Assembly (NCBI GenBank): GCA_038087875.1
Contig: CM075989.1
Location: forward strand, 14,572,001 to 14,636,000
Direction of reading: 5' to 3'
DNA: 64,000 nt
DNA from: Malacoraja senta
Lineage: Eukaryota
Shown here: positions 23,110-55,370 of the stretch, in pieces
Numbering within the stretch: the stretch's first letter is position 1
How the letters are laid out: each line of letters starts with the position of its first letter
The notes under the pieces: model-generated
What the model saw: the letters and a program-made list of their open reading frames with translations, nothing else
Told to the model about the DNA's origin: nothing
Databases searched by the model: none
Position numbers and translations under genes: made by a program

Positions 23110-23786
23110 CAGTCTGAAGAAGGGTCTCGACCCGAAACGTCGCCTATTCCTTCGCTCCATAGATGATGCCTCACCCGCTGAGTTTCTCCAGGTTTTTGTC
23201 TACCTTCGATTTTCACAGCATCTGCACTTCTTTCTTAAACATAGGAATCTGAGGGGTAACTTTTCCATACAGAGGGGGTTTATATGGAATGAGCTGCCAG
23301 AGGAGGTAGTTGAGGCAGGGACTATCGCTATGTCTAAAAGACACTTGGATAGGTACATGGATAGGACAGGTTTAGAGGGACATGGGCCATTGTGAGCAGT
23401 TCTGGATCCCACATCTGAGGAAGGATGTGCTTGGCACTGCAGAGGGTCCAGAGGAGGTTTACAAGAACGATCCCAATAATGAATGGGTTAATGTGCGATG
23501 AGCGTTTATCTGCATTGGGCCTGGACTTGCTGGAGTTTGGAAGAATGAGTGGGTGAGTTCCTCATTAAAACTTTCCCAAATAGTGAAAGGCTTGGATAGA
23601 GTGGATGTGGAGAGGATGTTTCCACTAGTGAGAGAGTCTCAGACCAGAGGGCACAGCCTCAAAATTAAAGGGCGTTCCTTTAGAATGAAGATGGGGAGGA
23701 ATTTCTTTAGTCAGTGGGTGGTGAATCTGTGTGACTCTGTGATTTCCCTCCCCCAGCCCTGCCTCCTCTCTCCCCTTGTCTCTATC
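23110..23786 (+). repeat. Partial copy of the 1.38-kb composite repeat unit
   Basis: Near-identical to 53892-54568; cut at CTATC by the Gypsy-A LTR. Confidence 0.85.
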
Positions 23787-26700
23787 TGTGGTATTATGGA
23801 ATAATAGTGTAAGGAATGCCTTTATTCTGCTGCCAGTGGTCAGGCTGCAGTGACGGCATCCGGCCTGAAGGTGGGGCTGTGGGCGTAACCGGGGAGGCCT
23901 AGGAGCAGGGCCTAGGGATGCAGCACGAGGCTGCTGCTGTACAGAGTTGCTAAATAAAGACAGACTCCGATTACGACGTTGTACGAGCCTCATTATAAGA
24001 ATAATTCGACATGGTGTCAGAAACGGGATACTTGTAAGCGAAAAAAAAAGAAGAAGAAGTGGAAAGTGTATCGTTTTGGCGGAGAAATGTGAGATGAGCT
24101 GGCAGATATGGGGCACCCTACACCAACTGCTACGTTCACAATACAACCTCCAGAGACATTCGATTTTACCAAGCCTCAAGAATGGGAGCATTGGATCAGG
24201 AGATTCGACCGCTTTCGGCTTGCAAGCAACTTAAACGCAACGTCGGAAGAAAACCAGGTGAACACGTTCGTGTATTGCATGGGCGATGAAGCCGAAAATG
24301 TGCTAAAGGGGCTAACGCTAACTGCAGATGAGAGGAAGATGTACACGGATGTCAAGGCGGGCTTTGATGCATTTTTTGTGCCTAAAAAGAATGTAATCTA
24401 CGAAAGAGCCAAGTTCAATCAGCGTGTGCAACTGCCAGGAGAAACGGTGGATTCCTTCATCACTGCTCTATATGGATTAGCTGAACACTGCAACTATGGA
24501 CAGTTACAGAACCAGCTGATCCGCGACAGGTTAGTGGTCGGGCTGAGAAACGTCTCATTGTCAGAAAAGCTACAGCTAGACAGAGACCTAACCCTTGGAA
24601 CTGCGATAACAAAGACAAGGCAGTCTGAAGAAGTTAGACGACAGCGGTCTGACTTAAGAGGAGAAAATGGCGGTGCTAGCAAGTGCTCTAATGTTGATGC
24701 TGTGCATGCTAAAAGCTACAGAAAACCCAAATGTCCCTCAAAGCCTCAGCCACAAGCACAAACACCAGGCAAAAATAAACGTAATACACGGCCACAGCCA
24801 GGTTCAAAGGCCTGTTATAGATGTGGAAAAATGCCCTCGCATGGAAAATGGGAATGCCCTGCTAAAGATGCTGTGTGTCACAACTGTGGCAAAAAGGGAC
24901 ATTATGGCAAAGTGTGCAGAAACAGTGCAAAATCTCTGAATGCTGTCACTACAGAGGAAGAAGAGAGCTTTTTCCTGGGAGCCGTGGATGCTGGAAAAGA
25001 CCCGTGGACGGAGCAGCTACAAGTGAGACAAAAAAAAGTGTGCTTTAAAATAGACACTGGTGCTGATGTCACCGTCATGCCAGCCGAGGTGTACCATGAC
25101 ATTACAGGGGGGCATGATGGGAAGCGCCTGGCTGTGTCGACACGCCCGTTGTTTCGGCCAGGGGTCAATGCACTCTCTGTCCTAGGTGTAGCCAGAGAAA
25201 CACTGCGCAGAGGCAAAAAGACAGCCATAGAGAACATTTCTGTAGTAAAAGACCTGCACACTGCACTGTTGGGAAGGCCTGCAATAGAACAGCTTCAGCT
25301 TGTGTGCAGGGTTGACAGCATCACCATGGAATCAGTGAAACAACAATATCCGAAGCTGTGTAGCGGCTTGGGTCTTGTTCTGAGGCCATACTCAATTAAA
25401 TTAAAGCCAGAGGCTGTGCCCTTCTCTCTCCACACACCACGCAGAGTCCCTCTGCCGCTTATGGGAAAAGTGAAGGAGGAGATAGACCGTATGGAGAAGA
25501 TGGGCGTAATCACCAAGATTGAGGAGCCGACTGATTGGTGTGCCGGGATGGTGGTGGTGCCGAAAAAAGAAGGTGATGTTCGCATTTGTGTGGATTTCAC
25601 AATGATGAATGAATCAGTATGCAGAGAAAAGTTTATCCTGCCTTCTGTCGAGCACACTCTGGGCATGCTAGCTGGCGCAACAGTCTTCAGCAAATTAGAT
25701 GCCAACATGGGCTTTTGGCAAGTACCATTGACAAAAGAGTCTGCCAAATACACCACCTTCATCACGCCTTTTGGGCGCTACTATTTTAACCGTCTACCCT
25801 TTGGCATAGCATCAGCCCCCGAGCACTTTCAAAGGATGATGGTGACAGAAGTGACCGGTGGCCTGGAGGGGGTACTGTGTCACATGGATGACATCCTAGT
25901 CTGGGGACAGACGCAGGAGGAGCATGATGTGCGGCTACATGCGGTGCTAGAGAAGGCACAAAAGGCCGGCATTACGCTCAACATGGACAAATGTGAGCTC
26001 ACACGCCACACAGTCGGATTCCTGGGTCATGTGATTTCAGCAGATGGAGTGAAGCCAGATCCAGAGAAGACGAGAGCAGTAGAAGAGATGGATGCACCCA
26101 AAAATGTCAGCGAACTCAGGAGTTTTCTGGGCATGGTCAATCAGCTGGGCCGCTTCTTGCCTAACCTGGCTGAAAAAGACAAAGTGCTACGAGACCTGCT
26201 GTCCAAGAAGAACCACTGGCACTGGGGGACAGAGCAGCAGGCCGCCTTTGATCAGTTAAACACAGAGCTGTCATCCACACCAGTGCTCACATTCTACAAC
26301 CCAAACAGTGCTCTAAAGATCTCTGCTGATGCCTCTTCCTTTGGCCTGGGGGCAGTCCTGCTGCAGAAGAGCGATGCCATGTGGTCACCTGTGGCATATG
26401 CGTCCAGGTCAATGACGCCAACAGAGCAGCGCTATGCTCAAGTAGAGAAGGAGGCATTGGCTGCAACGTGGGCATGTGAAAGGTTCAGCTGTTTCATCCT
26501 GGGAAGACCATTCGAGCTGGAAACTGACCATAAGCCGTTGGTGAGTCTGCTGGGAAGGAAAGCTTTGGATGACCTCCCACCAAGAATCCAAAGATTTAGG
26601 ATGAGACTCATGAGGTACAACTATACAGTGAATCATGTCCCTGGCAAAAGCCTGTGGACAGCCGACACCTTATCTCGTGCTCCTCTGAGAGCCGCAAGAG

Positions 26701-28577
26701 CACACACAGGCACAAGCCTATTAGAGGGCACCAACATCTATGTAGACTCTGTCATCAGCAACATTCCTGTCAGTGGAGATTATCTGAGCAGCCTACGTGA
26801 GCACCTGAAGGCAGACAGCACATGCTCTGCACTGATGGAGTACTGCACAGACGGCTGGCCCGACAAAAGCCAACTGCAGGGAGTGCTGAGACATTACTGG
26901 GCTGATAGAGCAGTGCTGACTGTGCACGATGGGCTGCTGCTGCGGGGCACGAGGCTCGTCATCCCATCAGCCTTACAAGGTGATGTGCTGCAGAGACTAC
27001 ATGAGGGACACCTGGGGGTGACAAAGTGCAGGGGCCGGGCCAAACAGACGGTATGGTGGCCAGGACTCAGCAGCCAGCTGAATGACATGGTGCTGAAATG
27101 TAGAACCTGCATCCAAGAGAGAAGGAACGTCAAAGAGCCGCTGATGCCAATGGAGATGCCAGACAGGCCTTGGCAAACCTTGGGAGCTGACCTGTTCACG
27201 CTGAAACACAAGACGTATCTACTAGTAGTAGATTATTTCTCAAGGTATGTGGAAGTTGCGCTGCTGTCACCCACAAGGTCCACAGATGTGGTGGTGCACC
27301 TGAAATCCATGTTTTATCGTCATGGAATTGGGGAATTTCTTCAAAGTGACAATGGGCCCCAGTTCTCAGGTAGCCACTTTAAAGCCTTTGCAGCAGAGTA
27401 TGGCTTTGTACACATCACGAGCAGCCCCAAGTATCCTCAGAGCAATGGGGAGGCGGAACGCGCTGTATAAACCGTGAAAAACCTGCTAACAAAGGCATCA
27501 GACCCATATCTTGCATTGCTGGCCTACAGAGCAACCCCTCTACAGAACGGCTCTAGCCCGGCCGAGCTGTTGATGGGGCGCTGCCTCCGCACTACAGTTC
27601 CTGCCCTTCCAACCCTGCTGAATCCAGTTTTGCCTGACTACAACGCACTGGGGGCCAAAGAAAGGGAGAAGAGGAGAAACGACGCAAGATCCTTCGACAA
27701 GAGGCACAGAGCGAGAAACCTGGAGCCACTCGTACCTGGGGAGGATGTGTGGATCACCGATGCATGAGTCCAGGGCACAGTGCTATCTACACACAACACC
27801 CCATCGCTCTTATATCGTCCAGGTGCCTCAGGGCACACTGAGGAGGAACCGGCATCACTTGGTGCCGCTGCAGACCAACAGTGGGGTGGTCGACGCTGAT
27901 GAGCCACCGGTGGGGGAAGATTCACCTACACCAGAGCCAGCTCCACCAGTGACAACATCACCCAGCAGAGAGGGCCCCACCACAGAGACTGTGCAGACCA
28001 GGTGTGGGAGAGAGGTTAGAAACCGCAGAGACTTGATTGGTGAGTTATTGATTTGTTTTCTACAGTAAAAAAAAAGAGAGAGTGAAATGTGAGTGAAATT
28101 GTTCTGCTTTACTGGTTACATTTACCTGAAACCTGAGAGTTTAAGTATTGAAGAACAGCCTGCTAAAGTAATAGTTCACAGTATGGTAACGTGTAAGTTA
28201 TTTTATTTCTATTTTGCATGCTTGAAACAGGGACAGATCAGGGACAGGTCTTCCAGCAAAAGGGCAGAATAAACCCCGTAAGACCTGCAGAGACAAAGGT
28301 AGTCCACCCTTTGTTCTCAAAGAAAGGGAGATGTGGTATTATGGAATAATAGTGTAAGGAATGCCTTTATTTTGTAGTAACCGGAGGGTAGCGCTGCTGC
28401 CAGTGGTCAGGCTGCAGTGACGGCTTCCGGCCTGAAGTTGGGGCTGTGGGGGTAACCGGATGGACGTAGGGGCCGGGCCCGGGCATGCACACGAGGCTGC
28501 TGCTGTACAGAGTTGCTAAATAAAGACAGACTCCGATTACGTCGTTGTACGAGCCTCATTATAAGAATAACACGACA
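23787..28577 (+). mobile_element. Ty3/Gypsy LTR retrotransposon (Gypsy-A), full length
   Basis: LTRs TGTGG..CGACA at 23787-24011 and 28332-28577; PBS TGGTGTCAGAAACGGGAT (tRNA-Leu-like) 24012-24029; PPT AAAGAAAGGGAGA; PR-RT-RH-IN domain order. Confidence 0.97.
24108..27470 (+). CDS. Gypsy-A Gag-Pol polyprotein, truncated in integrase by a premature stop
   Basis: 1120 aa: two Cys/His knuckles (CYRCG..H..C, CHNCGKKGHYGKVC), protease DTGA, RT LPFG..HMDD, RNase H ADASS..EKEALA..ETDHKPL, integrase HEGH..C..C and D-D-E; TAA at 27468 is CAA in the second copy and homology continues to ~28040. Confidence 0.93.
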   Translation: MGHPTPTATFTIQPPETFDFTKPQEWEHWIRRFDRFRLASNLNATSEENQVNTFVYCMGDEAENVLKGLTLTADERKMYTDVKAGFDAFFVPKKNVIYERAKFNQRVQLPGETVDSFITALYGLAEHCNYGQLQNQLIRDRLVVGLRNVSLSEKLQLDRDLTLGTAITKTRQSEEVRRQRSDLRGENGGASKCSNVDAVHAKSYRKPKCPSKPQPQAQTPGKNKRNTRPQPGSKACYRCGKMPSHGKWECPAKDAVCHNCGKKGHYGKVCRNSAKSLNAVTTEEEESFFLGAVDAGKDPWTEQLQVRQKKVCFKIDTGADVTVMPAEVYHDITGGHDGKRLAVSTRPLFRPGVNALSVLGVARETLRRGKKTAIENISVVKDLHTALLGRPAIEQLQLVCRVDSITMESVKQQYPKLCSGLGLVLRPYSIKLKPEAVPFSLHTPRRVPLPLMGKVKEEIDRMEKMGVITKIEEPTDWCAGMVVVPKKEGDVRICVDFTMMNESVCREKFILPSVEHTLGMLAGATVFSKLDANMGFWQVPLTKESAKYTTFITPFGRYYFNRLPFGIASAPEHFQRMMVTEVTGGLEGVLCHMDDILVWGQTQEEHDVRLHAVLEKAQKAGITLNMDKCELTRHTVGFLGHVISADGVKPDPEKTRAVEEMDAPKNVSELRSFLGMVNQLGRFLPNLAEKDKVLRDLLSKKNHWHWGTEQQAAFDQLNTELSSTPVLTFYNPNSALKISADASSFGLGAVLLQKSDAMWSPVAYASRSMTPTEQRYAQVEKEALAATWACERFSCFILGRPFELETDHKPLVSLLGRKALDDLPPRIQRFRMRLMRYNYTVNHVPGKSLWTADTLSRAPLRAARAHTGTSLLEGTNIYVDSVISNIPVSGDYLSSLREHLKADSTCSALMEYCTDGWPDKSQLQGVLRHYWADRAVLTVHDGLLLRGTRLVIPSALQGDVLQRLHEGHLGVTKCRGRAKQTVWWPGLSSQLNDMVLKCRTCIQERRNVKEPLMPMEMPDRPWQTLGADLFTLKHKTYLLVVDYFSRYVEVALLSPTRSTDVVVHLKSMFYRHGIGEFLQSDNGPQFSGSHFKAFAAEYGFVHITSSPKYPQSNGEAERAV

Positions 28578-28749
28578 CTCAGCGGGTGAGGCAGCATCTA
28601 TGGAGCGAAGGAATAGGCGACGTTTCGGGTCGAGACCCTTCTTCAGACTGAAGAATAGACAATAGGTGCAGTAGGCCGTTCGCCCCTTCGAGCTAGCACC
28701 GCCATTCAATGTGATCATGGCTGATCATCCACAATCAGTACCCCGTTCC

Positions 28750-31625
28750 TGTAATGTTTGACGGACAATAATTACCGATCCAGTAAGTCGGCTTTTAAGA
28801 TGGCTGCCGACTGATTCCCCGAAAACATCCATATAGGGGCAGAGCCCTCTAGTGGTGACTGTAAGGACAGTCTTCTAGACACAATGTATTTTCCCCTCCT
28901 TGTAAATGAAGGCGATCATTTAAGTCCAGTTATCAAATCAAATATAAGTCCATATAAAATCAGTCCAACGTCCTTTCAAATTTCATGTCCTCTATTAATA
29001 AACGGATGTCCAAAAAAATAACTGCTCAGTGAATATAACGGTTTCTGGCTTCACAGCTGAAAATCTTGCAGATACTGAGGTCTCTTCTGTTGCTGAGAGC
29101 GTGGAGCGGGATTTGGCTGCTCTGCTGCAAGCGACCGCGATCGCTGTCATGACTGGATATCAGGAAAGGAAAAGCATCCGGTTCGTCTTCTTCCTGTCTC
29201 TGTCTGCTTGCGATAAGACGTCTCGCGTTCCCTCTGGTGTTATCGTGGAGGAGGTACGCGTTCTCACCGAGTCTCCCTTTGATCTGTATCGGCTTTGAGA
29301 GTGCGCTTGCGAGCTTACGCTGTCTGTTGGGGGGCTGATTCGTACCCAGTCGCCGACCTTGAACCGCGGCGCTCGCTTGTACTCTGCGTTTGGCATCAAC
29401 GTACGTTTTCCCTTTCACTTGTCTGTGTGATATCGTTTCCGCCCTCGCGTTTGTGTCTGTATTTGTGCGCGATGGTGGTTGAAGAGCATTCAGTTTCGTT
29501 CGCAGCTTTCACCCTGTCATCAACTCTGCTGGCGTTTTCCCAGTCAGCGTGTGCGGTGTGGATCTGTAGGATCGGAGGAGGATATGGATTGACTGTTCAA
29601 ATGTTTTCCCCTCCGACATGCTCGCTTTTACGCTTTCTTTGATCACGTGATTGAATCGTTCAACCCCGCCGTTCGATTGGGGGTTGTATGTCGACGTCCG
29701 CTGATGTTGAATGTCATAACTCGCGAGGAAGGTGGAGAACTGTTCAGATATGAACTGTGGGCCTTTGTCTGTCGTTATGACCTCCGACAGTCCCCACTTG
29801 GTGAACAGCTTTTCGAGAATCACGATGATCAAGCTTGTCGTGACTGAAGAAGTAGTTGCGATCTCAGGCCACTTGCTGTGGAGATCATGTACAACAAGTA
29901 GAAACCGCTGGCTTCTTGGCGCAGCTTACACCTCTCCGAAGATGTCGAGTTGCAAGTGCCTCCATGGTTTGTCCAGCCATGGGATTGGCTAAAGAGGGGC
30001 AGGACATGGTTTTGTTGCTTTCTCACTAATTCTGCAAGCTTCACAATCTTTAATGAAATCTTCTACGCGACGATCTATTGCTGGCCACCCCACTGCCTCG
30101 CGACACCGTTGTTTCATCTTAACAACGCCAGGGTGTCCTTCGTGTGCCAGTTGTAACATGCGGTGTTGCAGTGATTTGGGTATAACCACTCGAGTTCCAC
30201 GCGTGACACACGTATCGTCAAACACAGCCAGTTCTTGGCGTACCCGGTGGTACGGAACATAGATACATAGATACATAGAAAATAGGTGCAGGAGTAGGCC
30301 ATTCGGCCCTTGGAGCCTGCACCGCCATTCAATATGATCATGGCTGATCATCCAACTCAGTATCCCATACCTGCCTTCTCTCCATACCCCCTGATCCCTT
30401 TAGCCACAAGGGCCACATCTAACTCCCTCTTAAATATAGCCAATGAACTGGCCTCAACTACCCTCTGTGGCAGAGAGTTCCAGACATTCACCACTCTCTG
30501 TGTGAAAACGTTTTTCCTCATCTCGGTCTTAAAGGATTTCCCCCTTATCCTTAAGCTGTGACCCCTTGTCCTGGACTTCCCCAACATCGGGAACAATCTT
30601 CCTGCATCTAGCCTGTCCAACCCCATCTCCTCTGCTATCTCCTTGGGCCAGTCTGTCCTGAGATACTGGCAGATGATTTGCAGTGTGCCTGCCGTCAGCT
30701 GTCGATTCTTCCTTTCTGCTCTCCCCGCGTTACTAGATTTGCCGTCATGTGCAAAATCACGATGTCGCTTGAAGTGTCGCTATCGTGTGTGTGTGTGTGT
30801 GTGCGTGCCACCGTTGGGACGTGACTGAGCATGTCTGCGATACGATTGTGTGAACCTGCGAGGTATTCGATTTCGAAGTTGTACTGATTAAGGCGATCGG
30901 ACCATCTGTAGATCCGGAGCGGACGATGTCCTGAGCCTGACGTATCCAGTAACGTAGTTAGCGCTTGGTGATCCGCACGGAGAGTGAATGGTCTCCCATA
31001 TAGGTATAGGTGTCAGTGTTCACACGTGTAGATGCACGCTAATGCTTCGCGTTCCCCGGTGGAGTACTTACGTTCAATTGTAGTCAAGGGACGGGACGCG
31101 AATGCGATCAGTCGTTCACTTCCATCGATGCCCTGAGATAACACCGCTCCGATCGCGATACTGGAAGGGTCTGGGGTGGCGTACGTTTCAGCACTTGTAT
31201 CAAAGTGCACGAGAACAGGCGGAGATGCTATTTTGTCTTTCAGCGTGTTGAACGCAATGTCCTGCCCGCTTGTCCATTCCCACTGTGTGTCTTTCTGTAG
31301 CAGCTTCCGTAGCGGTTCTGCGATCTGCGCGTACTGCGGCACAAACTTGCGGTAGTAGTTGGTGGTGCCCAGTAATGAAGCTAAGTCTTTCGTGTTAGTT
31401 GGGGTGGGGAGCACATTGATGGCTTGGACATTGTCCTGAGAAGGCTCAACTCCAGTCGCTGTCACTCTGTACCCGAGAAAATCGCTGTCGGATGCTGCAA
31501 ATGAACACTTTGCTGCGTTGAGCATCACGTTGTGGTGCACGAGACGAGCTAACGCTGCATCCAGTCGTCGATCGTGTTCCTCCTTGTCCCTTCCATGGAC
31601 CACGACATCGTCGAGGAGGTTGAGT
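28750..31625 (-). mobile_element. Degenerate Ty3/Gypsy element (Gypsy-B): RT C-half, RNase H, integrase, PPT, 3' LTR (28750-28886)
   Basis: LLDDVVVHG..AKCSF..FLGY..PTPTN, FASRPLT..ERKYSTGEREALAC, AHEGHPGVVKMK..WP..CEAC, TDKGPQF..YNPQSNGGVERFN; several frameshifts and stops. Confidence 0.9.
30256..30625 (-). mobile_element. CR1 3' fragment nested in Gypsy-B
   Basis: ORF 30357-30626 nearly identical to the CR1 at 19700-20070; interrupts Gypsy-B between EEM and VPYH. Confidence 0.9.
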
Positions 31626-31971
31626 GTCTGAGAAGGAGAGAGAGAGAGAGAGAGAGAGAGAGGGGAAGGAGAAAGGGGGGAAAGGATGGTGTGAATGTGA
31701 GAGAGTGAGGAGGGAGATAGAGAGTTATAGAATAATACAGTGTGGAAACGGGCCCTTTGGTCCAACTCGCCCACACCGGCCAACAATGTCCCAGCTACCC
31801 TCATCCCACTTGCCTGCGCTTGGTCCAGAACCTTCCAAACCTGTCCTAACGATGGGATAGTCCCAGCCTCAACTACCTCGTGTGGCAACTTGTTCCAAAA
31901 ACCCACCACCCTCTGTGTGAAAAAGTTACCCCTCGGATTCCTATTCAATCTTTTCCCCTTCACCTTGAATC

Positions 31972-32642
31972 CAGTGCATTCAGAAAGTATTCCGACCCCT
32001 TCACTTTTTCCACATTTTGTTACATTACAGCCTTATTCTAAAATTGATTAAAACATTTTTTTTACCACCAATCTACACACAATACCCCATAATATAAAAG
32101 CGAAAACAGGTGTTTAGAAATTTTTGCAAAGTAATTAAAAATAAATAACTGAAATATCACATTGACATAAGTATTCAGACCCATTACTCAGTACTTTGTT
32201 GAGGCACCTTTGGCAGCGATTTGCAGAACAACAGACAGCCAACCATGTCATCTCTGGGTGCCCGCTCTACCACCCACCAAATGGAGCTCAGCGCCTGGCA
32301 GACATTAACGCCAACAGAGACAACAACCTGGCTGCTCAACACCCGACGTGAGATCTAACTATTCCTTTGGTTTATGTTTCATTCGCAAGAAGAAGAAGAA
32401 GGCAGCGATTACAGTCTCGTCTTCTTGAGTAAAGAGTCTGAATGTCAATGTGATATTTCAGTTCTTTCTCTTTAATTACTTTGCAAACATTTCTAAGCAC
32501 CTGCTTTCGCTTTTCTATTATGGGGTATTGTGTGTAAATTGATGATTAAAAAAAAAAAGAATTGAATCCATTTTAGAATAAGGCTGTAACGTAACAAAAT
32601 GTGGAAAAAGTGAAGGGGGCTGAATACTTTCTGAATGCACTG
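31972..32642. mobile_element. Non-autonomous Tc1-like transposon with long TIRs
   Basis: CAGTGCATTCAGAAAGTATTC..GAATACTTTCTGAATGCACTG termini, ~200-bp imperfect TIRs, internal repeat AAGTATTCAGACCC at ~32170. Confidence 0.88.
32222..32400 (+). mobile_element. LINE 3' end (Ingi/Vingi-like) nested in the Tc1 element
   Basis: 10-bp TSD GGCAGCGATT (32212-32221 and 32401-32410), (GAA)n tail, encodes AEQQTANHVISGCPLYHPPNG..WLLNT stop. Confidence 0.7.
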
Positions 32643-32810
32643 GATGTCCTCTGGTCCTCGATTCCCCTACTCTGGGTAAAAGACTGTGCATCTACCTGAT
32701 CTATTCCTCTCATGAGTTTGTACACCTCTATAAGATCTCCCACATCCTCCTGTGCTCCAGGAATAGAGACCCAGCCTACTCATCCTCTCCCTATAGCTCA
32801 CACCCTCTAG

Positions 32811-33850: not shown

Positions 33851-34431
33851 CCTCTAGTCCTGGCAACATCCTCGTAAATCTTTTCTGAACCCTTTCAAGC
33901 TTGATAATATCTTTCCTATAACATGTTGCCCAGAACTGAACACAATATTCTAAATGCGGTCTCATCAACGTCTTATACAACTGCAACATGACCTCCCAAC
34001 TTCTTTACTCAGTACTCTGACTGATGAAGGCGAAAGTGCCAAAAGCCTTTTTGACCACGTTATCTATCTGTGACTCGTCCTTCAAGGAACCATGCACCTG
34101 TACTCCTAGATCCCTCTGCTCGAGTACACCACCCAGACGCCTACCATTTACTGTGTAGGTCCTGCCCTTGTTCGACGTCCCAAAATGCAACTCCTCACAC
34201 TTTCCTGTATTAAACTCCATTCCTACACTTTGTCGGTGTGGCGCCACCTTGTGGCAGCGGCTCGACTGCAGTCTGTCTGTCTTTTCTTTCTTTTTGTCCT
34301 GTTAGGTTTATGTTTTTGGTTTTAGTTTTATTTTATTTGTAGCTGTGTATATGTGGGGGGGGAGGGGGGGACTTCTTAATCTCTTCCCTGTTCGGGGACG
34401 CAACCTTTTCCCTGTCGTGTGTCCGTTATCG

Positions 34432-36453: not shown

Positions 36454-36488
<35 letters not shown>

Positions 36489-37195: not shown

Positions 37196-37199
37196 CGAC

Positions 37200-40782: not shown

Positions 40783-40837
<55 letters not shown>

Positions 40838-43244: not shown

Positions 43245-46200
43245 CGAAGGTAGACAAAACCTGGAGAAACTCAGCGGGTGAGGCAGCATCTATGGGAGCG
43301 AAGGAATAGGTGACGTTTGGGTCGAGACCCTTCTTCAGACTGAAAAAGGGTCAGTTTAAAGAAGGGTCTCGAGCTGAAATGTCGCTTATTCCTTCACTCC
43401 ATAGATGCTGCCTCACCCGCTGAATTACTTCAGCTTTTTGTCTACCTCAGATTCCTGTTAAATCTTTCCCCTTCACCTTAAACTGATGTCCTCTGGTCCT
43501 CGATTCCCCTACTCTGGCAAGGGACTCTGTGCATCTACTCGAACTATCCCTGTGATGATTTTGTACACCTCTATAAGATCATCCCACATCCTCCTGCGCT
43601 CCAAGGAATAAAGTTATAATGCACTATAATACATAATGCACCATAATACGATATAATACTCTAAGACACATGATTGTTAACACACCCAAATACAATATAA
43701 TACACTATAACACAACTTAACACAATATAACACACTATAATACAATATAACACTATAATACAAAATGTGATGATGCCCTCACCAAGATGGTCGCCATTGA
43801 TACAAATGCCCCTCACCAAGATGGCTTCCGTACTCTTCAGTCATATCACTTCCACTAATTGCCCTGCACCAAGATGGTAGCAGCCTCCCCTCAGTCAGTC
43901 ACTTGCTGCAAATGCCCCGCAACAAGATTGCCACCTCAGTCACACTCACTCCCCGCTGATGCCCCGCAGTGTCCTTTGTGACCCCCACCCAGTTATTCGT
44001 TCATGCCGGGTGGGACGGTGATACCGGGTGGGAAGGTCGATCCCGTGGATAGAGACAAGGGGAGAGAGGAGGCAGGGCTGGGGAGGGAAGTCACAGAGTC
44101 ACATAGATTCACCACCCACTGACTAAAGAAATTCCTCCCCATCTTCATTCTAAAGGAACGCCCTTTAATTTTGAGGCTGTGCCCTCTGGTCCGAGTCTCT
44201 CTCACTAGTGAAACATCCTCTCCACATCCACTCTATCCAAGCCTTTCACTGTTTGGGAAAGTTTTAATGAGGAACCCACCCCCTCATTCTTCCAAACTCC
44301 AGCAAGTCCAGGCCCAGTGCAGACAAACGCTCATCGTACATTAACCCACTCATTCCTGGGATCGTTCTTGTAAACCTCCTCTGGACCCTCTGCAGTGCCA
44401 AGCACATCCTTCCTCAGATGTGGGACCCAAAACTGCTCACAACGGCCCATGTCCCTCTAAACCTGTCCTATCCATGTACCTGTCCAAGTGTCTTTTAAAC
44501 ATAGCGATAGTCCCTGCCTCAACTACCTCCTCTGGCAGCTCATTCCATACAAACACCCTCTGTATGGAAAAGTTACCCCTCAGATTCCTATGTTTAAGAA
44601 ATAACTGCAGATGCTGGAAAAATCGAAGGTAGACAAAAACCCTGGAGAAACTCAGCGGGTGAGGCATCATCTATGGAGCGAAGGAATAGGCGACGTTTCG
44701 GGTCGAGACCCTTCTTCAGACAGAAAAAGGGTCAGTTTAAAGAAGGGTCTCGACCTGAAACGTCGCTTATTCCTTCACTCCATAGATGCTGCCTCATCCG
44801 CTGATTTTCTCCAGCTTTTTTGTCTACCTCAGATTCCTGTTAAATCTTTCCCCTTCATCTTAAACCGATGTCCTCTGGTCCTCGATTCCCCCTACTCTGG
44901 CAAGGGACTCTGTGCATCTACTCGAACTATTCCTGTGATGATTTTGTACACCTCTATAAGATCATCCCACATCCTCCTGCGCTCCAAGGAATAAAGTTAT
45001 AATGCACTATAATACATAATGCACCATAATACAATATAATACGTTATGACACACGATTCTGAACACACCCAAATACAATATAATACACTATAACACACCA
45101 TTACACAATATAACACACTATAATACAATATAACACTATAATTCAAAATGTGATTGATGCCCCTCACCAAGATGGTCGCCATTGCTACAAACGCCCCTCA
45201 CCAAGATGGCTTCCGTACTCTTCAGTCACAGTCACTTCCACTAATTGCCCTGCACCAAGATGGTAGCAGCCTCCCCTCAGTCAGTCACTTGCTGCAAATG
45301 CCCATACCAAGATTGCCACCTCAGTCACACTCACTCCCCACTGATGACCCCAGTGTCCTTTGTGACCCCCACCCGGTCATTCGTTCATGCCGGGTGGGAC
45401 AGTGATGCTGGGTGGGAAGGTCGATCCCGTGGATAGAGACAAGGGGAGAGAGGGGCAGGGCTGGGGAGGGAAGTCACAGAGTCACACAGATTCACCACCC
45501 TCTGACTAAAGAAATTCTCCCCATCTTCATTCTAAAGGACACCCTTTAATTTTGCGGCTGTGCCCTCTGGTCCGAGACTCTCTCACTAGTGGAAACATCC
45601 TCTCCACATCCACTCTAGCCAAGCCTTTCACTATTTGGGAAAGTTTTAAGGAGGAACTCACCCCCACATTCTTCCAAACTCCAGCAAGTCAGGCCCAGTG
45701 CAGACAAACGCTCATCGTACATTAACCCACTCATTCCTGGGATCGTTCTTGTAAACCTCCTCTGGACCCTCTGCAGTGCCAAGCACATCCTTCCTCAGAT
45801 GTGGGACCCAAAACTGCTCACAATGGCCCATGTCCCTCTAAACCTGTCCTATCCATGTACCTGTCCAAGTGTCTTTTAAACATAGCGATAGTCCCTGCTC
45901 AACTACCTCCTCTGGCAGCTCATTCCATACAAACACCCTCTGTATGGAAAAGTTACCCCTCAGATTCCTATGTTTAAGAAAGAACTGCAGGTGCTGGAAA
46001 AATCGAAGGTAGACAAAAACCCTGGAGAAACTCAGCGGGTGAGGCAGCATCTATGGAGCGAAGGAATAGGCGACGTTTCGGGTCGAGACCCTTCTTCAGA
46101 CTGAAAAAGGGTCAGTTTAAAGAAGGGTCTCGACCTGAAACGTCGCTTATTCCTTCGCTCCATAGATGCTGCCTCACCCGCTGAATTTCGCCAGCTTTTT

Positions 46201-48210
46201 TGTCTACCTCAGATTCTGTTAAATCTTTCCCCTTCACCTAAAACCGACGTCCTCTGGTCTCGATTCCCCTACTCTGGCAAGGGACTCTGTGCATCTACTC
46301 GAACTTCCCTGTCATGATTTTGTACACCTCTATAAGATTAAGATCATCCCACATCCTCCTGCGCTCCAAGGAATAAAGTTATAATCCACTATAATACATA
46401 ATGCACCATAATACAATATAATACGTTATGACACACGATTCTGAACACACCCAAATACAATATAATACACTATAACACACCATTACACAATATAACACAC
46501 TATAATACAATATAACACTCTATAATACAAAATGTGGTTGATGCCCCTCACCAAGATGGTCGCCATTGCTACAAACGCCCCTCACCAAGATGGCTTCCGT
46601 ACTCTTCAGTAATATCACTTCCACTAATTGCCCTGCACCAAGATGGTAGCAGCCTCCCCTCAGTCAGTCACTTGCTGCAAATGCCCATAACCAAGATGGC
46701 CACCTCAGTCACACTCGCTCCCCGCTGATGACCTGCAGTGTACTTTGTGACCCCCACCCGGTCATTCGTTCATGCCAAGTGGGAGGGAGATACCGGGTGG
46801 GAAGGTCGATCCCGTGGATAGAGACAAGGGGAGAGAGGAGGCAGGGCTGGGGGAGGGAAGTCACAGAGTCACACAGATTCACCACCCACTGACTAAAGAA
46901 ATTCCTCCCCATCTTCATTCTAAAGGAACGCCCTTTAATTTTGCGGCTGTGCCCTCTGGTCCGAGTCTCTCTCACTAGTGGAAACATCCTCTCCACATCC
47001 ACTCTATCCAAGCCTTTCACTATTTGGGAAAGTTTTAAGGAGGAACCCACCCCCTCATTCTTCCAAACTCCAGCAAGTCCAGGCCCAGTGCAGACAAACG
47101 CTCATCGTACATTAACCCACTCATTCCTGGGATCGTTCTTGTAAACCTCCTCTGGACCCTCTGCAGTGCCAAGCACATCCTTCCTCAGATGTGGGACCCA
47201 AAATTGCTCACAATGGCCCATGTCCCTCTAAACCTGTCCTATCCATGTACCTGTCCAAGTGTCTTTTAAACATAGCGATAGTCCCTGCCTCAACTACCTC
47301 CTCTGGCAGCTCATTCCATACAAACACCCTCTGTATGGAAAAGTTACCCCTCAGATTCCTATGTTGAAAAGAAAGAAGTGCAGATGCTGGAAAAATCGAA
47401 GGTAGACAAAAACCTGGAGAAACTCAGCGGGTGAGGCAGCATCTATGGAGCGAAGGAATAGGCGACGTTTCGGGTTGAGACCCTTCTTCAGACTGAAAAA
47501 GGGTCAGTTTAAAGAAGAGTCTCGACCTGAAACGTCGCCTATTCCTTCACTCCATAGATGCTGCCTCACCCGCTGAATTTCTCCAGCTTTTTTGTCTACC
47601 TCAGATTCCTGTTAAATCTTTCAACTTCACCTTAAACCGATGTCCTCTGGTCCTCGATTCCCCTACTCTGGCAAGGGACTCTGTGCATCTACTCGAACTA
47701 TCCCTGTGATGATCTTGTACATCTCTAGAAGATCATCCCACATCCTCCTGCGCTCAAAGGAATAAAGTTATAATGCACTATAATACATAATGCACCATAA
47801 TACAATATAATACGTTATGACACACGATTTTGAACACACCCAAATACAATATAATACACTATAACACACCATTACACAATATACACACTATAATACAATA
47901 TAACACTCTATAATACAAAATGTGATTGATGCCCCTCACCAAGATGGTCGCCATTGATACAAACGCCCCTCACCAAGATGGCTTCCGTACTCTTCAGTCA
48001 CAGTCACTTCCACTAATTGCCCTGCACCAAGATGGTAGCAGCCTCCCCTCAGTCAGTCACTTGCTGCAAATGCCCCACAACAAGATGGCTGCCTCAGTCA
48101 CACTCACTCCCCGCTGATGCCCCGCAGTGTCCTTTGTGACCCCCACCCGGTCATTCGTTCATGCCGAGTGGGAGGGAGATACCGGGTGGGAAGGTCGATC
48201 CCGTGGATAG
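43245..48210 (-). repeat. Tandem array of a ~1.38-kb composite unit, about 3.6 copies
   Basis: AAGTTATAAT.CACTATAATAC marker at ~43611, 44994, 46376 and 47766 (periods ~1383, 1382, 1390); orientation opposite to 23110-23786 and 52773-55370. Confidence 0.95.
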
Positions 48211-51200
48211 TGTCGAAATTATTCTTATAATGAGGCTCGTACAACGTCGTAATCGGAGTCTGTCTTTATTTAGCAACTCTGTACAGCAGCAGCCTCGTGC
48301 TGCAACCCCGGGCCCTGCTCCTAGGCCTCCCCGGTTACGCCCACAGCCCCACCTTCAGGCCGGATGCCATCACTGCAGCCTGACCACTGGCAGCAGAATA
48401 AAGGCATTCCTTACACTATTATTCCATAATACCACATCTCCCTTTCTTTGAGAACAAAGGGTGGACTACCTTTGTCTCTGCAGGTCTTAAGGGGTTTATT
48501 CTGCCCTTTTGCTGAAAGACCTGTCCCTGATCAAACAAATCACCAATCAAGTCTCTGCGGTTTCTAACCTCTGTCCCACACCTGGTCTGCACAGTCTCTG
48601 TGGTGGGGCCCTCTCTGCCGGGTGATGTTGTCACTGGTGGAGCTGGCTCTGGTGTAGGTGAATCTTCTCCCACTGGTGGCTCATCAGCGTCAACTACCCC
48701 ACTGTTGGTCTGCAGCGGCACCAAGTGATGCCGGTTCCTCCTCAGTGTGCCCTGAGGCACCTGGACGATATAAGAGCGAGGGGTGTTGTGTGTAGATAGC
48801 ACTGTGCCCTGGACTCGTGCATCGGTGATCCACACATCCTCCCCAGGTACGAGTGGCTCCAGGTTTCTCGCTCCGTGCCTCTTGTCGAAGGATCTTGCGT
48901 CGTTCCTCCTCTTCTCCCTTTCTTTGGCCCCCAGCGCGTTGTAGTCAGGCAAAACTGGATTCAGCAGGGTTGGAAGGGCAGGAACTGTAGTGTGGAGGCA
49001 GCGCCCCATCAACAGCTCGGCTGGGCTAGAGCCGTTCTGTAGAGGGGTTGCTCTGTAGGCCAGCAATGCAAGATATGGGTCTGATGCCTTTGTTAGCAGG
49101 TTTTTCACGGTTTGTACAGCGCGTTCCACCTCCCCATTGCTCTGAGGAAACTTGGGGCTGCTCGTGATGTGTACAAAGCCATACTCTGCTGCAAAGGCTT
49201 TAAAGTGGCTACCTGAGAACTGGGGCCCATTGTCACTTTGAAGAAATTCCCCAATTCCATGACGATAAAACATGGATTTCAGGTGCACCACCACATCTGT
49301 GGACCTTGTGGGTGACAGCAGCGCAACTTCCACATACCTTGAGAAATAATCTACTACTAGTAGATAAGTCTTGTGTTTCAGCGTGAACAGGTCAGCTCCC
49401 AAGGTTTGCCAAGGCCTGTCTGGCATCTCCGTTGGCATCAGCGGCTCTTTGACGTTCCTTCTCTCTTGGATGCAGGTTCTACATTTCAGCACCATGTCAT
49501 TCAGCTGGCTGCTGAGTCCTGGCCACCATACCGTCTGTTTGGCCCGGCCCCTGCACTTTGTCACCCCCAGGTGTCCCTCATGTAGTCTCTGCAGCACATC
49601 ACCTTGTAAGGCTGATGGGATGACGAGTCTCGTGCCCCGCAGCAGCAGCCCATCGTGCACAGTCAGCACTGCTCTATCAGCCCAGTAATGTCTCAGCACT
49701 CCCTGCAGTTGGCTTTTGTCGGGCCAGCCGTCTGTGCAGTACTCCATCAGTGCAGAGCATGTGCTGTCTGCCTTCAGGTGCTCACGTAGGCTGCTCAGAT
49801 AATCTCCACTGACAGGAATGTTGCTGATGACAGAGTCTACATAAGATGTTGGTGTCCTCTAATAGCTTGTGTCTGTGTGTGCTCTTGCGGCTCTCAGAGG
49901 AGCACGAGATAAGGTGTCGGCTGTCCACAGGCTTTTGCCAGGGAATGATTCACTGTATAGTTGTACCTCATGAGTCTCATCCTAAATCTTTGGATTCTTG
50001 GTGGGAGGTCATTCAAAGCTTTCCTTCCCAGCAGACTCACCAACGGCTTATGGTCAGTTTCCAGCTCGAATGGTCTTCCCAGGATGAAACAGCTGAACCT
50101 TTCACATGCCCACGTTGCAGCCAATGCCTCCTTCTCTACTTGAGCATAGCGCTGCTCTGTTGCCGTCATTGACCTGGACGCATATGCCACAGGTGACCAC
50201 ATGGCATCGCTCTTCTGCAGCAGGACTGCCCCCAGGCCAAAGGAAGAAGCATCAGCAGAGATCTTTAGAGCACTGTTTGGGTTGTATAATGTGAGCACTG
50301 GTGTGGATGACAGCTCTGTGTTTAACTGATCAAAGGCGGCCTGCTGCTCTGTCCCCAGTACCAGTGGTTCTTCTTGGACAGCAGGTCTCGTAGCACTTTG
50401 TCTTTTCAGCCAGGTTAGGCAAGAAGCGGCCCAGCTGATTGACCATGCCCAGAAAACTCCTGAGTTCGCTGACATTTTTGGGTGCATCCATCTCTTGTAC
50501 TGCTCTCGTCTTCTCTGGATCTGGCTTCACTCCATCTGCTGAAATCACATGACCCAGGAATCCGACTGTGTGGCGTGTGAGCTCACATTTGTCCATGTTG
50601 AGCGTAATGCCGGCCTTTTGTGCCTTCCTCTAGCACCGCATGTAGCCGCACATCATGCTCCTCCTGCGTCTGTCCCAGACCAGGATGTCATCCATGTGAC
50701 ACAGTACCCCCTCCAGGCCACCGGTCACTTCTGTCACCATCATCCTTTGAAAGTGCTCGGGGGCTGATGCTATGCCAAAGGGTAGACGGTTAAAATAGTA
50801 GCGCCCAAAAGGCGTGATGAAGGTGGTGTATTTGGCAGACTCTTGTGTCAATGGTACTTGCCAAAAGCCCATGTTGGCATCTAATTTGCTGAAGACTGTT
50901 GCGCCAGCTAGCATGCCCAGAGTGTGCTCGACAGAAGGCAGGATAAACTTTTCTCTGCATACTGATTCATTCATCATTGTGAAATCCACACAAATGCGAA
51001 CATCACCTTCTTTTTCGGCACCACCACCATCCCGGCACACCAATCAGTCGGCTCCTCAATCTTGGTGATTACGCCCATCTTCTCCATACGGTCTATCTCC
51101 TCCTTCACTTTTCCCATAAGCGGCAGAGGGACTCTGCGTGGTGTGTGGAGAGAGGGCACAGCCTCTGGCTTTAATTTAATTGAGTATGGCCTCAGAACAA

Positions 51201-52772
51201 GACCCAAGCTTCGGATATTGTTGTTTCACTGATTCCATGGTGATGCTGTCAACCCTGCACACAGGCTGAAGCTGTTCTATTGCAGGCCTTCCCAACAGTG
51301 CAGTGTGCAGGTCTTTTACTACAGAAATGTTCTCTATGGCTGTCTTTTTGCCTCTGCGCAGTGTTTCTCTGGCTACACCTAGGACAGAGAGTGCATTGAC
51401 CTCTGGCCCAAACAACGGCGTGTCGACACTGCCAGGCGCTTCCCATCATGCCCCCCTGTAATGTCATGGTACACCTCGGCTGGCATGGCGGTGACATCAG
51501 CACCAGTGTCTATTTTAACGCACACTTTTTTTTGTCTCACTTGTAGCTGCACCGTCCACGGGTCTTTTCCAGCATCCACGGCTCCTAGGAAAAAGCTCTC
51601 TTCTTCCTCTGTAGTGACAGCATTCAGAGATTTTGCACTGTTTCTGCACACTTTGCCATAATGTCCCTTTTTGCCACAGTTGTGACACACAGCATCTTTA
51701 GCAGGGCATTCCCATTTTCCATGCGAGGGCATTTTTCCACATCTATAACAGGCCTTTGAACCTGGCTGTGGCCGTGTATTACGTTTATTTTTGCCTGGTG
51801 TTTGTGCTTGTGGCTGAGGCTTTGAGGGAAATTTGGGTTTTCTGTAGCTTTTAGCATGCACAGCATCAACATTAGGGCACTTGCTAGCACCGCCATTTTC
51901 TCCTCTTAAGTCAGACCGCTGTCGTCTAACTTCTTCAGACTGCCTTGTCTTGTTATCGCAGTTCCAAGGGTTAGGTCTCTGTCTAGCTGTAGCTTTTCTG
52001 ACAATGAGACGTTTCTCAGCCCGACCACTAACCTGTCGTGGATCAGCTGGTTCTGTAACTGTCCATAGTTGCAGTGTTCAGCTAATCTGTATAGAGCAGT
52101 GATGAAGGAATCCACCGTTTCTCCTGGCAGTTGCACACGCTGATTGAACTTGGCTCTTTCGTAGATTACATTCTTTTTAGGCACAAAAATGCATCAAAGC
52201 CCGCCTTGACATCCGTGTACATCTTCCTCTCATCTGCAGTTAGCGTTAGCCCCTTTAGCACATCTTCGGCTTCATCGCCCATGCAATACACGAACGTGTT
52301 CACCTGGTTTTCTTCCGACGTTGCGTTTAAGTTGCTTGCAAGCCGATTGCGGTCGAATCTCCTGATCCAACGCTCCCATTCTTGATGCTTGGTAAAATCG
52401 AATGTCTCTGGAGGTTGTATTGTGAACGTAGCAGTTGGTGTAGGGTGCCCCATATCTGCCAGCTCATCTCACATTTCTCCGCCAAAACGATACACTTTCT
52501 CTTCTTCTTTTTTTTTTTCGCTTACAAGTATCCCGTTTCTGACACCATATCGAATTATTCTTATAATGAGGCTCGTACAATGACGTAATCGGAGTCTGTC
52601 TTTATTTAGCAACTCTGTACAGCAGCAGCCTCGTGCTGCATCCCCGGGCCCTGCTCCTAGGCCTCCCCGGTTACGCCCACAGCCCCACCTTCAGGCCGGA
52701 AGCCGTCACTGCAGCCTGACCACTGGCAGCAGAATAAAGGCATTCCTTACACTATTATTCCATAATACCACA
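48211..52772 (-). mobile_element. Gypsy-A second copy, inverted and frameshifted
   Basis: LTRs 48211-48436 and 52548-52772, PBS ending 52547; ORF fragments near-identical to the 1120-aa protein; integrase frame open 48419-49747; ~190-bp deletion in the 3' UTR relative to copy 1. Confidence 0.97.
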
Positions 52773-55370
52773 GGACATGGGCCATTGTGAGCAGTTTTGG
52801 GTCCCACATCTGAGGAAGGATGTGCTTGGCACTGCAGAGGGTCCAGAGGAGGTTTACAAGAACGATCCCAATAATGAATGGGTTAATGTGCGATGAACGT
52901 TTGTCTGCACTGGGCCTGGACTTGCTGGAGTTTGGAAGAATGAGGGGGTGGGTTCCTCATTAAAACTTTCCCAAATAGTGAAAGGCTTGGATAGAGTGGA
53001 TGTGGAGAGGATGTTTCCACTAGTGAGAGAGTCTCGGACCAGAGGGCACAGCCTCAAAATTAAAGGGCGTTCCTTTAGAATGAAGATGGGGAGGAATTTC
53101 TTTAGTCAGTGGGTGGTGAATCTGTGTGACTCTGTGACTTCCCTCCCCAGCCCTGCCTCCTCTCTCCCCTTGTCTCTATCCACGGGATCGACCTTCCCAC
53201 CCGGTATCGCCCTCCCACTCAGCATGATCGAATGACCGGGTGGGGGTCACAAAGGACACTGCGGGTCATCAGCGGGGAGTGAGTGTGACTGAGGTGGCCC
53301 TCTTGGTTATGAGCATTTGCAGCAAGTGACTGACTGAGGGGAGGCTGCTACCATCTTGGTGCAGGGCAATTAGTGGAAGTGACTGTGACTGAAGAGTACG
53401 GAAGCCATCTTGGTGAGGGGCGTTTGTAGCAATGGCGACCATCTTGGTGAGGGGCATCAACCACATTTTGTATTATAACGTGTTATATTGTATTATAGTG
53501 TGTTATATTGTGTTAAGTTGTGTTATAGTGTATTATATTGTATTTGGGTGTGTTCAAAATCGTGTGTCATAACGTATTATATTGTATTATGGTGCATTAT
53601 GTATCATAGTGCATTATAACTTTATTCCTTTGAGCGCAGGAGGATGTGGGATGATCTTATAGAGGTGTACAAAATCATCACAGGAATAGTTCGAGTAGAT
53701 GCACAGAGTCCCTTGCCAGAGTAGGGGAATCGACGACCAGAGGACATCGGTTTAAGGTGAAGGGAAAGATTCAACAGGAATCTGAGGTAGACAAAAAAGC
53801 TGGAGAAATTCAGCGGATGAGGCAGCATCTATGGAGTGAAGGAATAAGCGACGTTTCAGGTCGAGACCCTTCTTTAAACTGACCCTTTTTCAGTCTGAAG
53901 AAGGGTCTCGACCCGAAACGTCGACTATTCCTTTGCTCCATAGATCCTGCCTCACCGGCTGAGTTTCTCAGGGTTTTTGTCTACCTTCGATTTTTCCCAG
54001 CATCTGCATTTCTTTCTTAAACATAGGAGTCTGAGGGGTAACTTTTCCATACAGAGGGTGTTTGTATGGAATGAGCTGCCAGAGGAGGTAGTTGAGGCAG
54101 GGACTATCGCTATGTTTAAAAGACACTTGGACAGGTACATGGATAGGACAGGTTTAGAGGGACATGGGCCATTGTGAGCAGTTTTGGGTCCCACATCTGA
54201 GGAAGGATGTGCTTGGCACTGCAGAGGGTCCAGAGGAGGTTTACAAGAACGATCCCAGGAATGAGTGGGTTAATGTACGATGAGCGTTTGTCTGCACTGG
54301 GCCTGGACTTGCTGGACTTTGGAAGAATGAGGGGGTGAGTTCCTCATTAAAACTTTCCCAAATAGTGAAAGGCTTGGATAGAGTGGATGTGGAGAGGATG
54401 TTTCCACTAGTGAGAGAGTCTCGGACCAGAGGGCACAGCCGCAAAATTAAAGGGTGTTCCTTTAGAATGAAGATGGGGAGGAATTTCTTTAGTCAGAGGG
54501 TGGTGAATCTGTGTGACTCTGTGACTTCCCTCCCCCAGCCCTGCCTCCTCTCTCCCCTTGTCTCTATCCACGGGATCGACCTTCCCACCCAGTATCACCG
54601 TCCCACCCGGCATGAACGAATGACTGGGTGGGGGTCACAAAGGACACTGCGGGGCATCAGCGGGGAGTGAGTGTGACTGAGGCAGCCATCTTGTTGCGGG
54701 GCATTTGCAGCAAGTGACTGACTGAGGGGAGGCTGCTACCATCTTGGTGCAGGGAAATTAGTGGAAGTGATATGACTGAAGAGTACGGAAGCCATCTTGG
54801 TGAGGGGCGTTTGGGCGACCATCTTGGTGAGGGCATCAATCACATTTTGTATTATAGAGTGTTATATTGTATTATAGTGTGTTATATTGTGTTAAGTTGT
54901 GTTATAGTGTATTATATTGTATTTGGGTGTGTTCAGAATCGTGTGTCATAACGTATTATATTGTATTATGGTACATTATGTATTATAGTGCATTATAACT
55001 TTATTCCTTGGAGCGCAGGAGGATGTGGGATGATCTTATAGAGGTGTACAAAATCATGACAGGGATAGTTCGAGTAGATGCACAGAGTCCCTTGCCAGAG
55101 TAGGGGAATCGAGGACCAGAGGACGTCGGTTTAAGGTGAAGGGGAAAGATTTAACAGGAATCTGAGGTAGACAAAAAAGCTGGCGAAATTCAGCGGGTGA
55201 GGCAGCATCTATGGAGTGAAGGAATAAGCGAAGTTTCAGCTCGAGACCCTTCTTTAAACTGACCCTTTTTCAGTCTGAAGAAAGGTCTCGACCCAAACGT
55301 CACCTATTCCTTCGCTCCATAGATGCTGCTCACCCGCTGAGTTTCTCCAGGTTTTTGTCTACCTTCGATG
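52773..55370 (+). repeat. Tandem array of the 1.38-kb unit, about 1.9 copies, opposite orientation to 43245-48210
   Basis: Reverse complement of the 43-48 kb units; markers at ~53620 and ~55000. Confidence 0.95.
53895..53922 (+). ncRNA. Minimal type-I hammerhead ribozyme-like motif (Penelope pseudo-LTR), representative copy
   Basis: CUGAAGA-A-[GGGUC UC GACCC]-GAAA-CG-UC; equivalent copies at 23114-23141 (+), 44692-44719 (-), 46072-46099 (-); stem I very weak, activity unproven. Confidence 0.5.

What the first reader, a model, noticed from the sequence alone, without database searches (positions are those of the whole stretch)
23782..52777. About 20-kb inversion between two opposite Gypsy-A copies, shown by a swapped TSD and LTR diagnostics
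Seen: neither element has its own TSD. The 5' flank of copy 1 (..TGTCTCTATC|LTR, 23786) and the 3' flank of copy 2 (LTR|CTATCCACGGG on the minus strand, 48210) are the two halves of one empty site, TGTCTCTATCCACGGG (intact at ~53171), with a 5-bp TSD CTATC. LTRs 23787 and 48211 share GGCATCC and TTACGACG, whereas LTRs 28332 and 52548 share GGCTTCC and TTACGTC. Established: LTR integration gives matching TSDs and identical LTRs. Inference: ectopic recombination between the inverted copies flipped 28578-48210.
Basis: partly seen in the sequence, partly recalled or inferred. Interest (0 to 1): 0.75.

Follow-up and report, generated by a model that had tools for sequence, protein, structure and literature searches.

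The report
Flipped segment between chimeric Gypsy retrotransposons
In what is likely a shark or ray genome, two near-identical jumping-gene copies, opposite as assembled, carry the two halves of one insertion footprint and enclose about 20 kb of reversed host DNA; recombination among probably three such copies likely flipped it, an ordinary kind of rearrangement that could still be an assembly error.

Summary
Two Ty3/Gypsy copies (23787-28577 +, 48211-52772 -; 1.2% internal divergence) lack their own TSDs. Of four flank pairings only copy 1's 5' with copy 2's 3' gives one (CTATC). New support: a duplicated host segment runs forward, reversed, forward, switching at the two elements.

The simple two-element inversion is incomplete. 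The second swapped TSD is absent, and those two flanks lie 195 bp apart in the host repeat. LTR 28332 differs from the other three by 14-16 substitutions plus 22 bp. The LTR pairing rests on two sites. At least three insertions are the better reading.

A 200-N gap lies inside the segment, so its size and the elements' relative orientation are not shown by contiguous sequence. Copy 2 has 11 error-like single-base indels. No spanning long reads were available, and the crossover could not be placed.

Verdict: probably a real repeat-mediated rearrangement (about 0.7 over all variants), assembly artefact about 0.27; a known kind of event. The scan noted a similar swapped-TSD inversion in another genome (e1-7318689).

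The parts
22682..23186 (+). Host block D0 (end of an older repeat, LINE piece, SINE); forward copy of the duplicated host segment
   Evidence: 96.6% to 28574-29079 reversed and 96% to 63827-64000 forward
23105..23786 (+). Left part of a ~1.38-kb tandem host unit, ending at the insertion site
   Evidence: 95-97.6% to the units at 43243-48210 and 52773-55369
23782..23786 (+). CTATC, 5' half of the split target-site duplication
23787..28577 (+). Gypsy copy 1, 4791 bp, chimeric (its LTRs differ by 16 substitutions and 23 gap bases)
23787..24011 (+). Copy 1 5' LTR (225 bp, TG..CA), followed by a primer-binding site at 24012-24030
24093..27470 (+). Open gag-pol frame, 1125 aa (CCHC knuckle, protease motif, RT, RNase H, integrase); ends at a premature stop; further breaks near 27765 and 27803
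28332..28577 (+). Copy 1 3' LTR (246 bp), divergent type with a 22-bp insertion; preceded by a polypurine tract
28578..48210 (-). Host segment reversed relative to its paralogues; 19,633 bases as assembled, including a gap of unknown true size
   Evidence: 21-mer orientation map; BLAST blocks
34432..34631 (.). 200-N assembly gap inside the reversed segment
34632..37196 (.). 10-bp satellite, about 260 copies, abutting the gap
43243..48210 (-). About 3.6 tandem host units, three with the intact empty site
48206..48210 (-). CTATC, 3' half of the split target-site duplication
48211..52772 (-). Gypsy copy 2, 4562 bp; 185 bp shorter 3' UTR; frame broken by 11 single-base indels and two small deletions in its 5' two thirds
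48211..48436 (-). Copy 2 3' LTR (226 bp), 4 substitutions and 1 indel from LTR 23787
52548..52772 (-). Copy 2 5' LTR (225 bp, ends TA)
52773..55369 (+). About 2 tandem host units, forward; the first starts 195 bp into the unit relative to the flank at 28578
55370..64000 (+). Rest of the forward paralogue of the reversed segment, with a second 200-N gap at 58304-58503

Best explanation
The two Gypsy copies carry the two halves of one CTATC target site and the host segment between them is reversed; this likely arose by ectopic recombination or template switching among probably three insertions of one family. Shown: the split site, the orientation switch at each element within gap-free sequence, the missing second TSD, the divergent fourth LTR. 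Inferred: insertion X landed at CTATC in the first host unit; Y1 (divergent LTR type) and Y2 landed in the opposite orientation at two other points of the same repeated unit, 195 bp apart. X's 5' part joined Y1's 3' part (copy 1) and Y2's 5' part joined X's 3' part (copy 2). Either Y1 and Y2 first fused into a hybrid that then inverted with X, or two template switches did it in one step; in the second case the event may itself have made the duplicated host segment.
For: Only 1 of 4 flank pairings gives a TSD. Host 21-mers are forward at 22-23.8 kb, reversed in 28.5-48.2 kb and forward again from 52.8 kb. LTRs 23787/48211 are the closest pair (4 substitutions) and group in the tree. All four junctions are precise LTR ends. 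The two unmatched flanks map to 23182 and 23378 of the intact unit. LTRs 28332/52548 differ by 14 of 224 sites plus 22 bp, against 4 of 225 for the X pair. Amino-acid changes shared by both copies hit conserved columns at a rate like other family members (5 of 42 against 2 of 27 to 4 of 17 in 11 relatives), as expected for separate insertions of an active lineage. Inference: a random mis-join among many family copies would not be expected to give a local, complementary swap.
Against: The segment contains an N gap, so copy 1 and copy 2 sit on different contigs. Copy 2 has 11 single-base indels where copy 1 has none (binomial p about 0.001), and 10 of them are listed as absent from family contigs: this looks like a noisy consensus. 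The LTR pairing rests on 2 sites. Copy 2's own LTRs differ by only 6 substitutions, so its chimerism is weakly shown. Polarised amino-acid changes split 15 to 15 with no switch along the element, so no crossover point is visible. The missing halves of Y1 and Y2 are not in the window (only 4 LTR hits).
Confidence: 0.5

Rival explanations
1. Assembly artefact. The true locus has X intact with CTATC on both sides; the assembler crossed between Gypsy copies (possibly also between haplotypes, making the host duplication false).
For: Two gaps at the same place of the host segment; error-like indels in the middle contig; a mis-join gives the same TSD and LTR pattern as a real swap; the repeat is 4.3 kb at 98%.
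Against: Long reads normally span 4.8 kb (general knowledge; the platform is unknown). It needs two complementary local mis-joins. The two host paralogues differ by about 2% (65 of 3116 sites over 8 blocks, summed) and by kilobase indels, high for alleles. It does not explain the missing second TSD or the divergent LTR, which need three insertions anyway.
Confidence: 0.27
2. The gap-bounded contig 34632-58303 is scaffolded backwards. The elements are then direct repeats and CTATC flanks the whole composite: a host segment bounded by Y1 and Y2 was excised as a circle, or copied, and inserted into X.
For: That contig is near-palindromic around copy 2 and both its ends face the same part of the host segment. 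The model predicts the missing second TSD and unlike LTRs 28332/52548.
Against: Needs a scaffolding error; leaves more sequence missing in the first gap; no direct evidence.
Confidence: 0.12
3. One reading: two insertions only. Y lost its TSD and 195 bp by aberrant integration or later deletion, and its 3' end was converted by a divergent family member.
For: Both informative LTR sites pair 28332 with 52548; the differences of 28332 cluster in about 120 bp.
Against: Needs two extra accidents at one element; both Y junctions are exact LTR ends, which a later deletion would not be expected to leave.
Confidence: 0.1

Closest known systems
Inversions made by ectopic recombination between opposite transposon copies, e.g. 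Galileo at Drosophila buzzatii 2z3 (PMC2775673; passages read)
   Same: Opposite copies at both breakpoints, exchanged TSD, chimeric copies.
   Different: There both TSD pairs are exchanged, nothing is deleted and uninverted chromosomes were sequenced. Here one pair only, 195 bp missing, an LTR retrotransposon rather than a DNA transposon, and no uninverted allele seen.
Chimeric LTR retrotransposons with mismatched TSDs, e.g. CR elements of maize centromere 10 (PMC4806543; passages read)
   Same: Complete-looking elements with mismatched TSDs in repeat-rich, duplicated DNA, read as recombination products.
   Different: Here one of the two partner flanks can be found 24 kb away, and the host is an animal.
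DUP-TRP/INV-DUP inverted triplications (PMC11293582; passages read)
   Same: An inverted copy between direct copies, with a junction inside a pair of inverted repeats of about 98% identity.
   Different: Both junctions here lie in retrotransposon homology, whereas the second junction there is put down to MMBIR or NHEJ; no copy-number gain is shown here.
Ty3/Gypsy elements of fishes ('K02A2.6-like', 'Gypsy retrotransposon integrase-like protein 1')
   Same: Single gag-pol frame, same domains, 85-95% amino-acid identity to the closest clusters.
   Different: Both copies here are broken and lack their own TSDs.

Membership tests
Ty3/Gypsy LTR retrotransposon | Domain order gag-protease-RT-RNase H-integrase | tested here: met
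   CCHC at aa 262, DTGA at 321; RT 489-648, RNase H 711-842, integrase 957-1115
Ty3/Gypsy LTR retrotransposon | LTRs with TG..CA ends, primer-binding site and polypurine tract | tested here: met
   3 of 4 LTRs end TG..CA, 52548 ends TA; PBS and PPT identical in both copies
Ty3/Gypsy LTR retrotransposon | No env gene (separates it from errantiviruses and retroviruses) | tested here: met
   No ORF of 150 aa or more between integrase and 3' LTR; the interval is under 300 bp
Intact single LTR insertion | Own 4-6 bp TSD and near-identical LTRs | tested here: not met
   No TSD for either copy; copy 1 LTRs differ by 16 substitutions and 23 gap bases, copy 2 by 6 and 1
Reciprocal two-copy ectopic inversion (criteria of PMC2775673) | Copies in opposite orientation | tested here: inconclusive
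   Opposite as assembled, but a gap lies between them
Reciprocal two-copy ectopic inversion (criteria of PMC2775673) | Both TSD pairs exchanged | tested here: not met
   1 of 2 pairs
Reciprocal two-copy ectopic inversion (criteria of PMC2775673) | Both copies chimeric | tested here: inconclusive
   Clear for copy 1; for copy 2 only 2 informative LTR sites; no polarity switch inside
Reciprocal two-copy ectopic inversion (criteria of PMC2775673) | No deletion or duplication at the breakpoints | tested here: not met
   195 bp of the host unit missing between the two unmatched flanks
Reciprocal two-copy ectopic inversion (criteria of PMC2775673) | Uninverted arrangement in another allele or relative | not testable with these tools
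   No genome held; all 24 runs listed are short de Bruijn contigs
DUP-TRP/INV-DUP-like inverted duplication | Inverted copy between direct copies, junction in an inverted repeat | tested here: met
   As assembled: forward, reversed, forward, switching at the elements; block D present three times
DUP-TRP/INV-DUP-like inverted duplication | Copy-number gain created by the event itself | not testable with these tools
   Ages are compatible (paralogues about 2%, X LTR pair 1.8% with CI 0.5-4.5) but no ancestral allele is available

The most novel reading that the evidence does not exclude
A single replication event with two template switches among three Gypsy insertions split one element and produced an inverted duplication of a roughly 20-kb host segment, an inverted-triplication-like rearrangement in a cartilaginous fish with both junctions inside retrotransposons. 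It predicts a third, reversed Gypsy copy with the divergent LTR about 330 bp beyond the window's right end.
Probability: 0.2. Interest if true: 0.4.

Novelty: new member of a known kind. Interest (0 to 1): 0.2.

Why it matters
If real, it is one more case of retrotransposon copies rearranging host DNA, with base-level footprints, in a group where I found no such report in one targeted search (4 papers listed, titles and abstract starts only). It touches no intact gene that I could identify and opens no standing question. Its practical value is as a caution: one swapped TSD does not prove a clean inversion when the partner pair is missing and a gap lies inside. The inverted-duplication reading would be more interesting, because it would tie a segmental duplication to a dated transposon burst.

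Tried and rejected
No genome was held, so nothing beyond the window could be read.

Public runs: 24 listed, all as Logan contigs, best share 0.57. Laid 4 of the 24 on 47900-54300. SINE and LINE pieces swamped the output: 15 joints shown and 1196 not shown, none of those shown at an LTR end. The four junctions are therefore neither confirmed nor contradicted, and no piece spans an element.

Crossover mapping failed. Of 45 codon sites compared, 15 were derived in copy 1, 15 in copy 2, 14 synonymous, 1 unresolved, with no switch. Substitution density along the element is not significantly uneven (p 0.096). Disabling lesions do switch from copy 2 to copy 1 between element positions about 2950 and 3680, as a swap would predict. 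I did not count this, because it rests on single-base indels that look like consensus errors.

The idea that both copies are duplicates of one already decayed insertion was not supported.

The idea that the host unit is a structural RNA array was rejected: no Rfam match, no tRNA.

A simple foldback read artefact was rejected: the arms differ in unit number and by several percent.

Testing whether the two CTATC halves come from the same unit copy was inconclusive: the left half groups with the first unit at 52773 (4 informative sites), the right half at 48210 shows no clear partner.

Metagenome scans for family DNA found nothing.

The exon-like piece at 41208-41339 was not identified (empty; weak Laminin-G-type leads at 0.82-0.85, top hit another family).

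Full report
Setting. The window is repeat-rich animal DNA with two runs of 200 N, at 34432-34631 and 58304-58503. A LINE fragment is closest to a stingray protein (86%), with chimaera and bamboo shark proteins among the next named hits, so the host is probably a cartilaginous fish. No genome was held, so all structure comes from the window.

The elements. Copy 1 is 23787-28577 (+, 4791 bp) and copy 2 is 48211-52772 (-, 4562 bp). They differ at 47 of 4003 internal sites, 1.17%. Copy 1 has one open frame of 1125 aa with CCHC knuckle, protease motif, RT, RNase H and integrase in Gypsy order; it ends at a premature stop. Both copies have the same primer-binding site and polypurine tract. Copy 2 lacks 185 bp of 3' UTR and is broken by 11 single-base indels and two small deletions. 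The family occurs in all 4 runs laid and has close relatives in bony fishes.

Checking the observation. Testing all 4 pairings of 5' and 3' flanks for 3-8 bp matches, only copy 1 5' with copy 2 3' matches, at 5 bp. The rebuilt empty site is intact five times in the window, because it lies in a 1.38-kb tandem unit. Two independent insertions at the same base of different unit copies are possible but improbable without strong targeting (inference). The LTR motifs are distributed as stated and the four-LTR tree joins 23787 with 48211 (88/85), on just 2 informative columns.

The host DNA is itself duplicated. Using 21-mers of 52773-64000 as a reference, matches are on the same strand at 22-23.8 kb and on the opposite strand from 28.5 to 48.2 kb. 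Each orientation switch lies within gap-free sequence and coincides with one element. Turning 28578-48210 round would put all three copies of the segment in one direction and give one element CTATC on both sides.

What does not fit two insertions. A reciprocal exchange predicts a second swapped TSD. The flanks at 28578 and 52773 share none; they map to positions 23182 and 23378 of the intact unit, so 195 bp are missing between them. The LTRs that should be their pair differ at 14 of 224 sites plus a 22-bp insertion, against 4 of 225 for the other pair. LTR 28332 is 14-16 substitutions from each of the others, which are 4-6 apart. Both ends are exact LTR termini. The simplest reading is that they belong to two separate insertions, so three elements took part. 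By the criteria given for Galileo inversions (PMC2775673, passages) this is not a clean member: one TSD pair of two, and a deletion at one breakpoint. Chimeric LTR elements with mismatched TSDs are described in maize (PMC4806543, passages).

Mechanism. Shown: split TSD, orientation switches, missing second TSD, divergent fourth LTR. Inferred: X inserted at CTATC; Y1 and Y2 inserted in the opposite direction; X 5' joined Y1 3', and Y2 5' joined X 3'. One route is fusion of Y1 and Y2, then inversion with X. The other is two template switches in one event, as for human inverted triplications (PMC11293582, passages). If Y2 lay on the other homologue, that event would also create the duplicated host segment. 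Ages allow this: the paralogues differ by about 2% (65 of 3116 sites, my sum of 8 blocks) and the X LTR pair by 1.8% (CI 0.5-4.5). The left half-unit groups with the first unit right of copy 2 (4 informative sites). These facts also fit an older tandem duplication, so they do not decide. The routes differ in what lies about 330 bp past the window end (projected 64328).

Results against. The two elements lie on different contigs, and the middle contig is near-palindromic with both ends facing the same part of the host segment, so its orientation, and with it 'opposite copies' and '20 kb', is not shown by contiguous sequence. Copy 2 has 11 single-base indels where copy 1 has none (p about 0.001), mostly in base runs. 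Ten are listed as absent from family contigs (21 further rows not shown). Host units in that contig also carry many small gaps. This points to a noisy consensus and keeps a mis-join open, since a mis-join gives the same TSD and LTR pattern. Polarising amino-acid differences against the close relatives fetched gave 15 derived in each copy and no switch, so the crossover cannot be placed. Public data could not test the junctions: all 24 runs were short contigs, and of the joints in the 4 runs laid 15 were shown, none at an LTR end.

Literature and earlier notes. Searches: (listings and abstract starts). Three papers were read as passages; no supplements were opened. I found no report of this locus, which is a narrow search. 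The scan has no notes on this genome and one similar swapped-TSD inversion between solo LTRs elsewhere, which I did not check.

Verdict. Observation confirmed; interpretation partly supported. Three-insertion rearrangement as assembled 0.5, assembly artefact 0.27, flipped contig with direct copies 0.12, strict two-element inversion 0.1. A new instance of a known kind; interest 0.2.

Noticed in passing
window 24093-27470: The Gypsy polyprotein is 92-95% identical to proteins annotated from an eel (Synaphobranchus kaupii), carp and sea bream, while a LINE in the window is closest to a stingray protein (86%), then chimaera and bamboo shark. This suggests horizontal transfer between bony and cartilaginous fishes. 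Such transfers in vertebrates are surveyed in PMC7070016 (listing only). No tree or synonymous-rate test was made.
   Followed up: partly
window 41208-41339 (-), 57150-57470 (+), 56640-56940 (+): Broken exon-like pieces, present in both host paralogues, that resemble the LNS region of calsyntenin-3 (recalled, not shown by any search); database searches were empty or gave weak Laminin-G leads.
   Followed up: partly
window 23182, 23378, 23786 (positions in the host unit): Three LTR junctions fall within 600 bp of the same 1.38-kb unit, all in SINE or LINE pieces; local clustering or target preference, untested.
   Followed up: no
window 43243-48210 and 52773-55369: The 1.38-kb tandem unit is built of a head-to-head SINE pair, LINE pieces and an AT-rich simple repeat, and begins and ends with the same SINE copy, as expected from unequal crossover between SINEs.
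   Followed up: partly
window 28751-32032 (-): An older, unrelated Gypsy-like element (RT and RNase H at 31013-32032) forms part of the duplicated host segment; the paralogue at 62381-64000 lacks two kilobase-size parts of it.
   Followed up: partly
window 34432-34631 and 58304-58503: Both gaps fall at about the same place of the duplicated segment, next to where the 10-bp satellite lies; homology runs up to each gap edge.
   Followed up: yes
window 39976-40223: A 250-bp piece 92% identical to part of the tandem unit (47928-48176), outside the arrays.
   Followed up: no
window 19703-20069: 96% identical to 30258-30624 reversed, higher than other LINE pairs in the window (about 80%); either a young LINE copy or a further remnant of the duplicated segment.
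   Followed up: no
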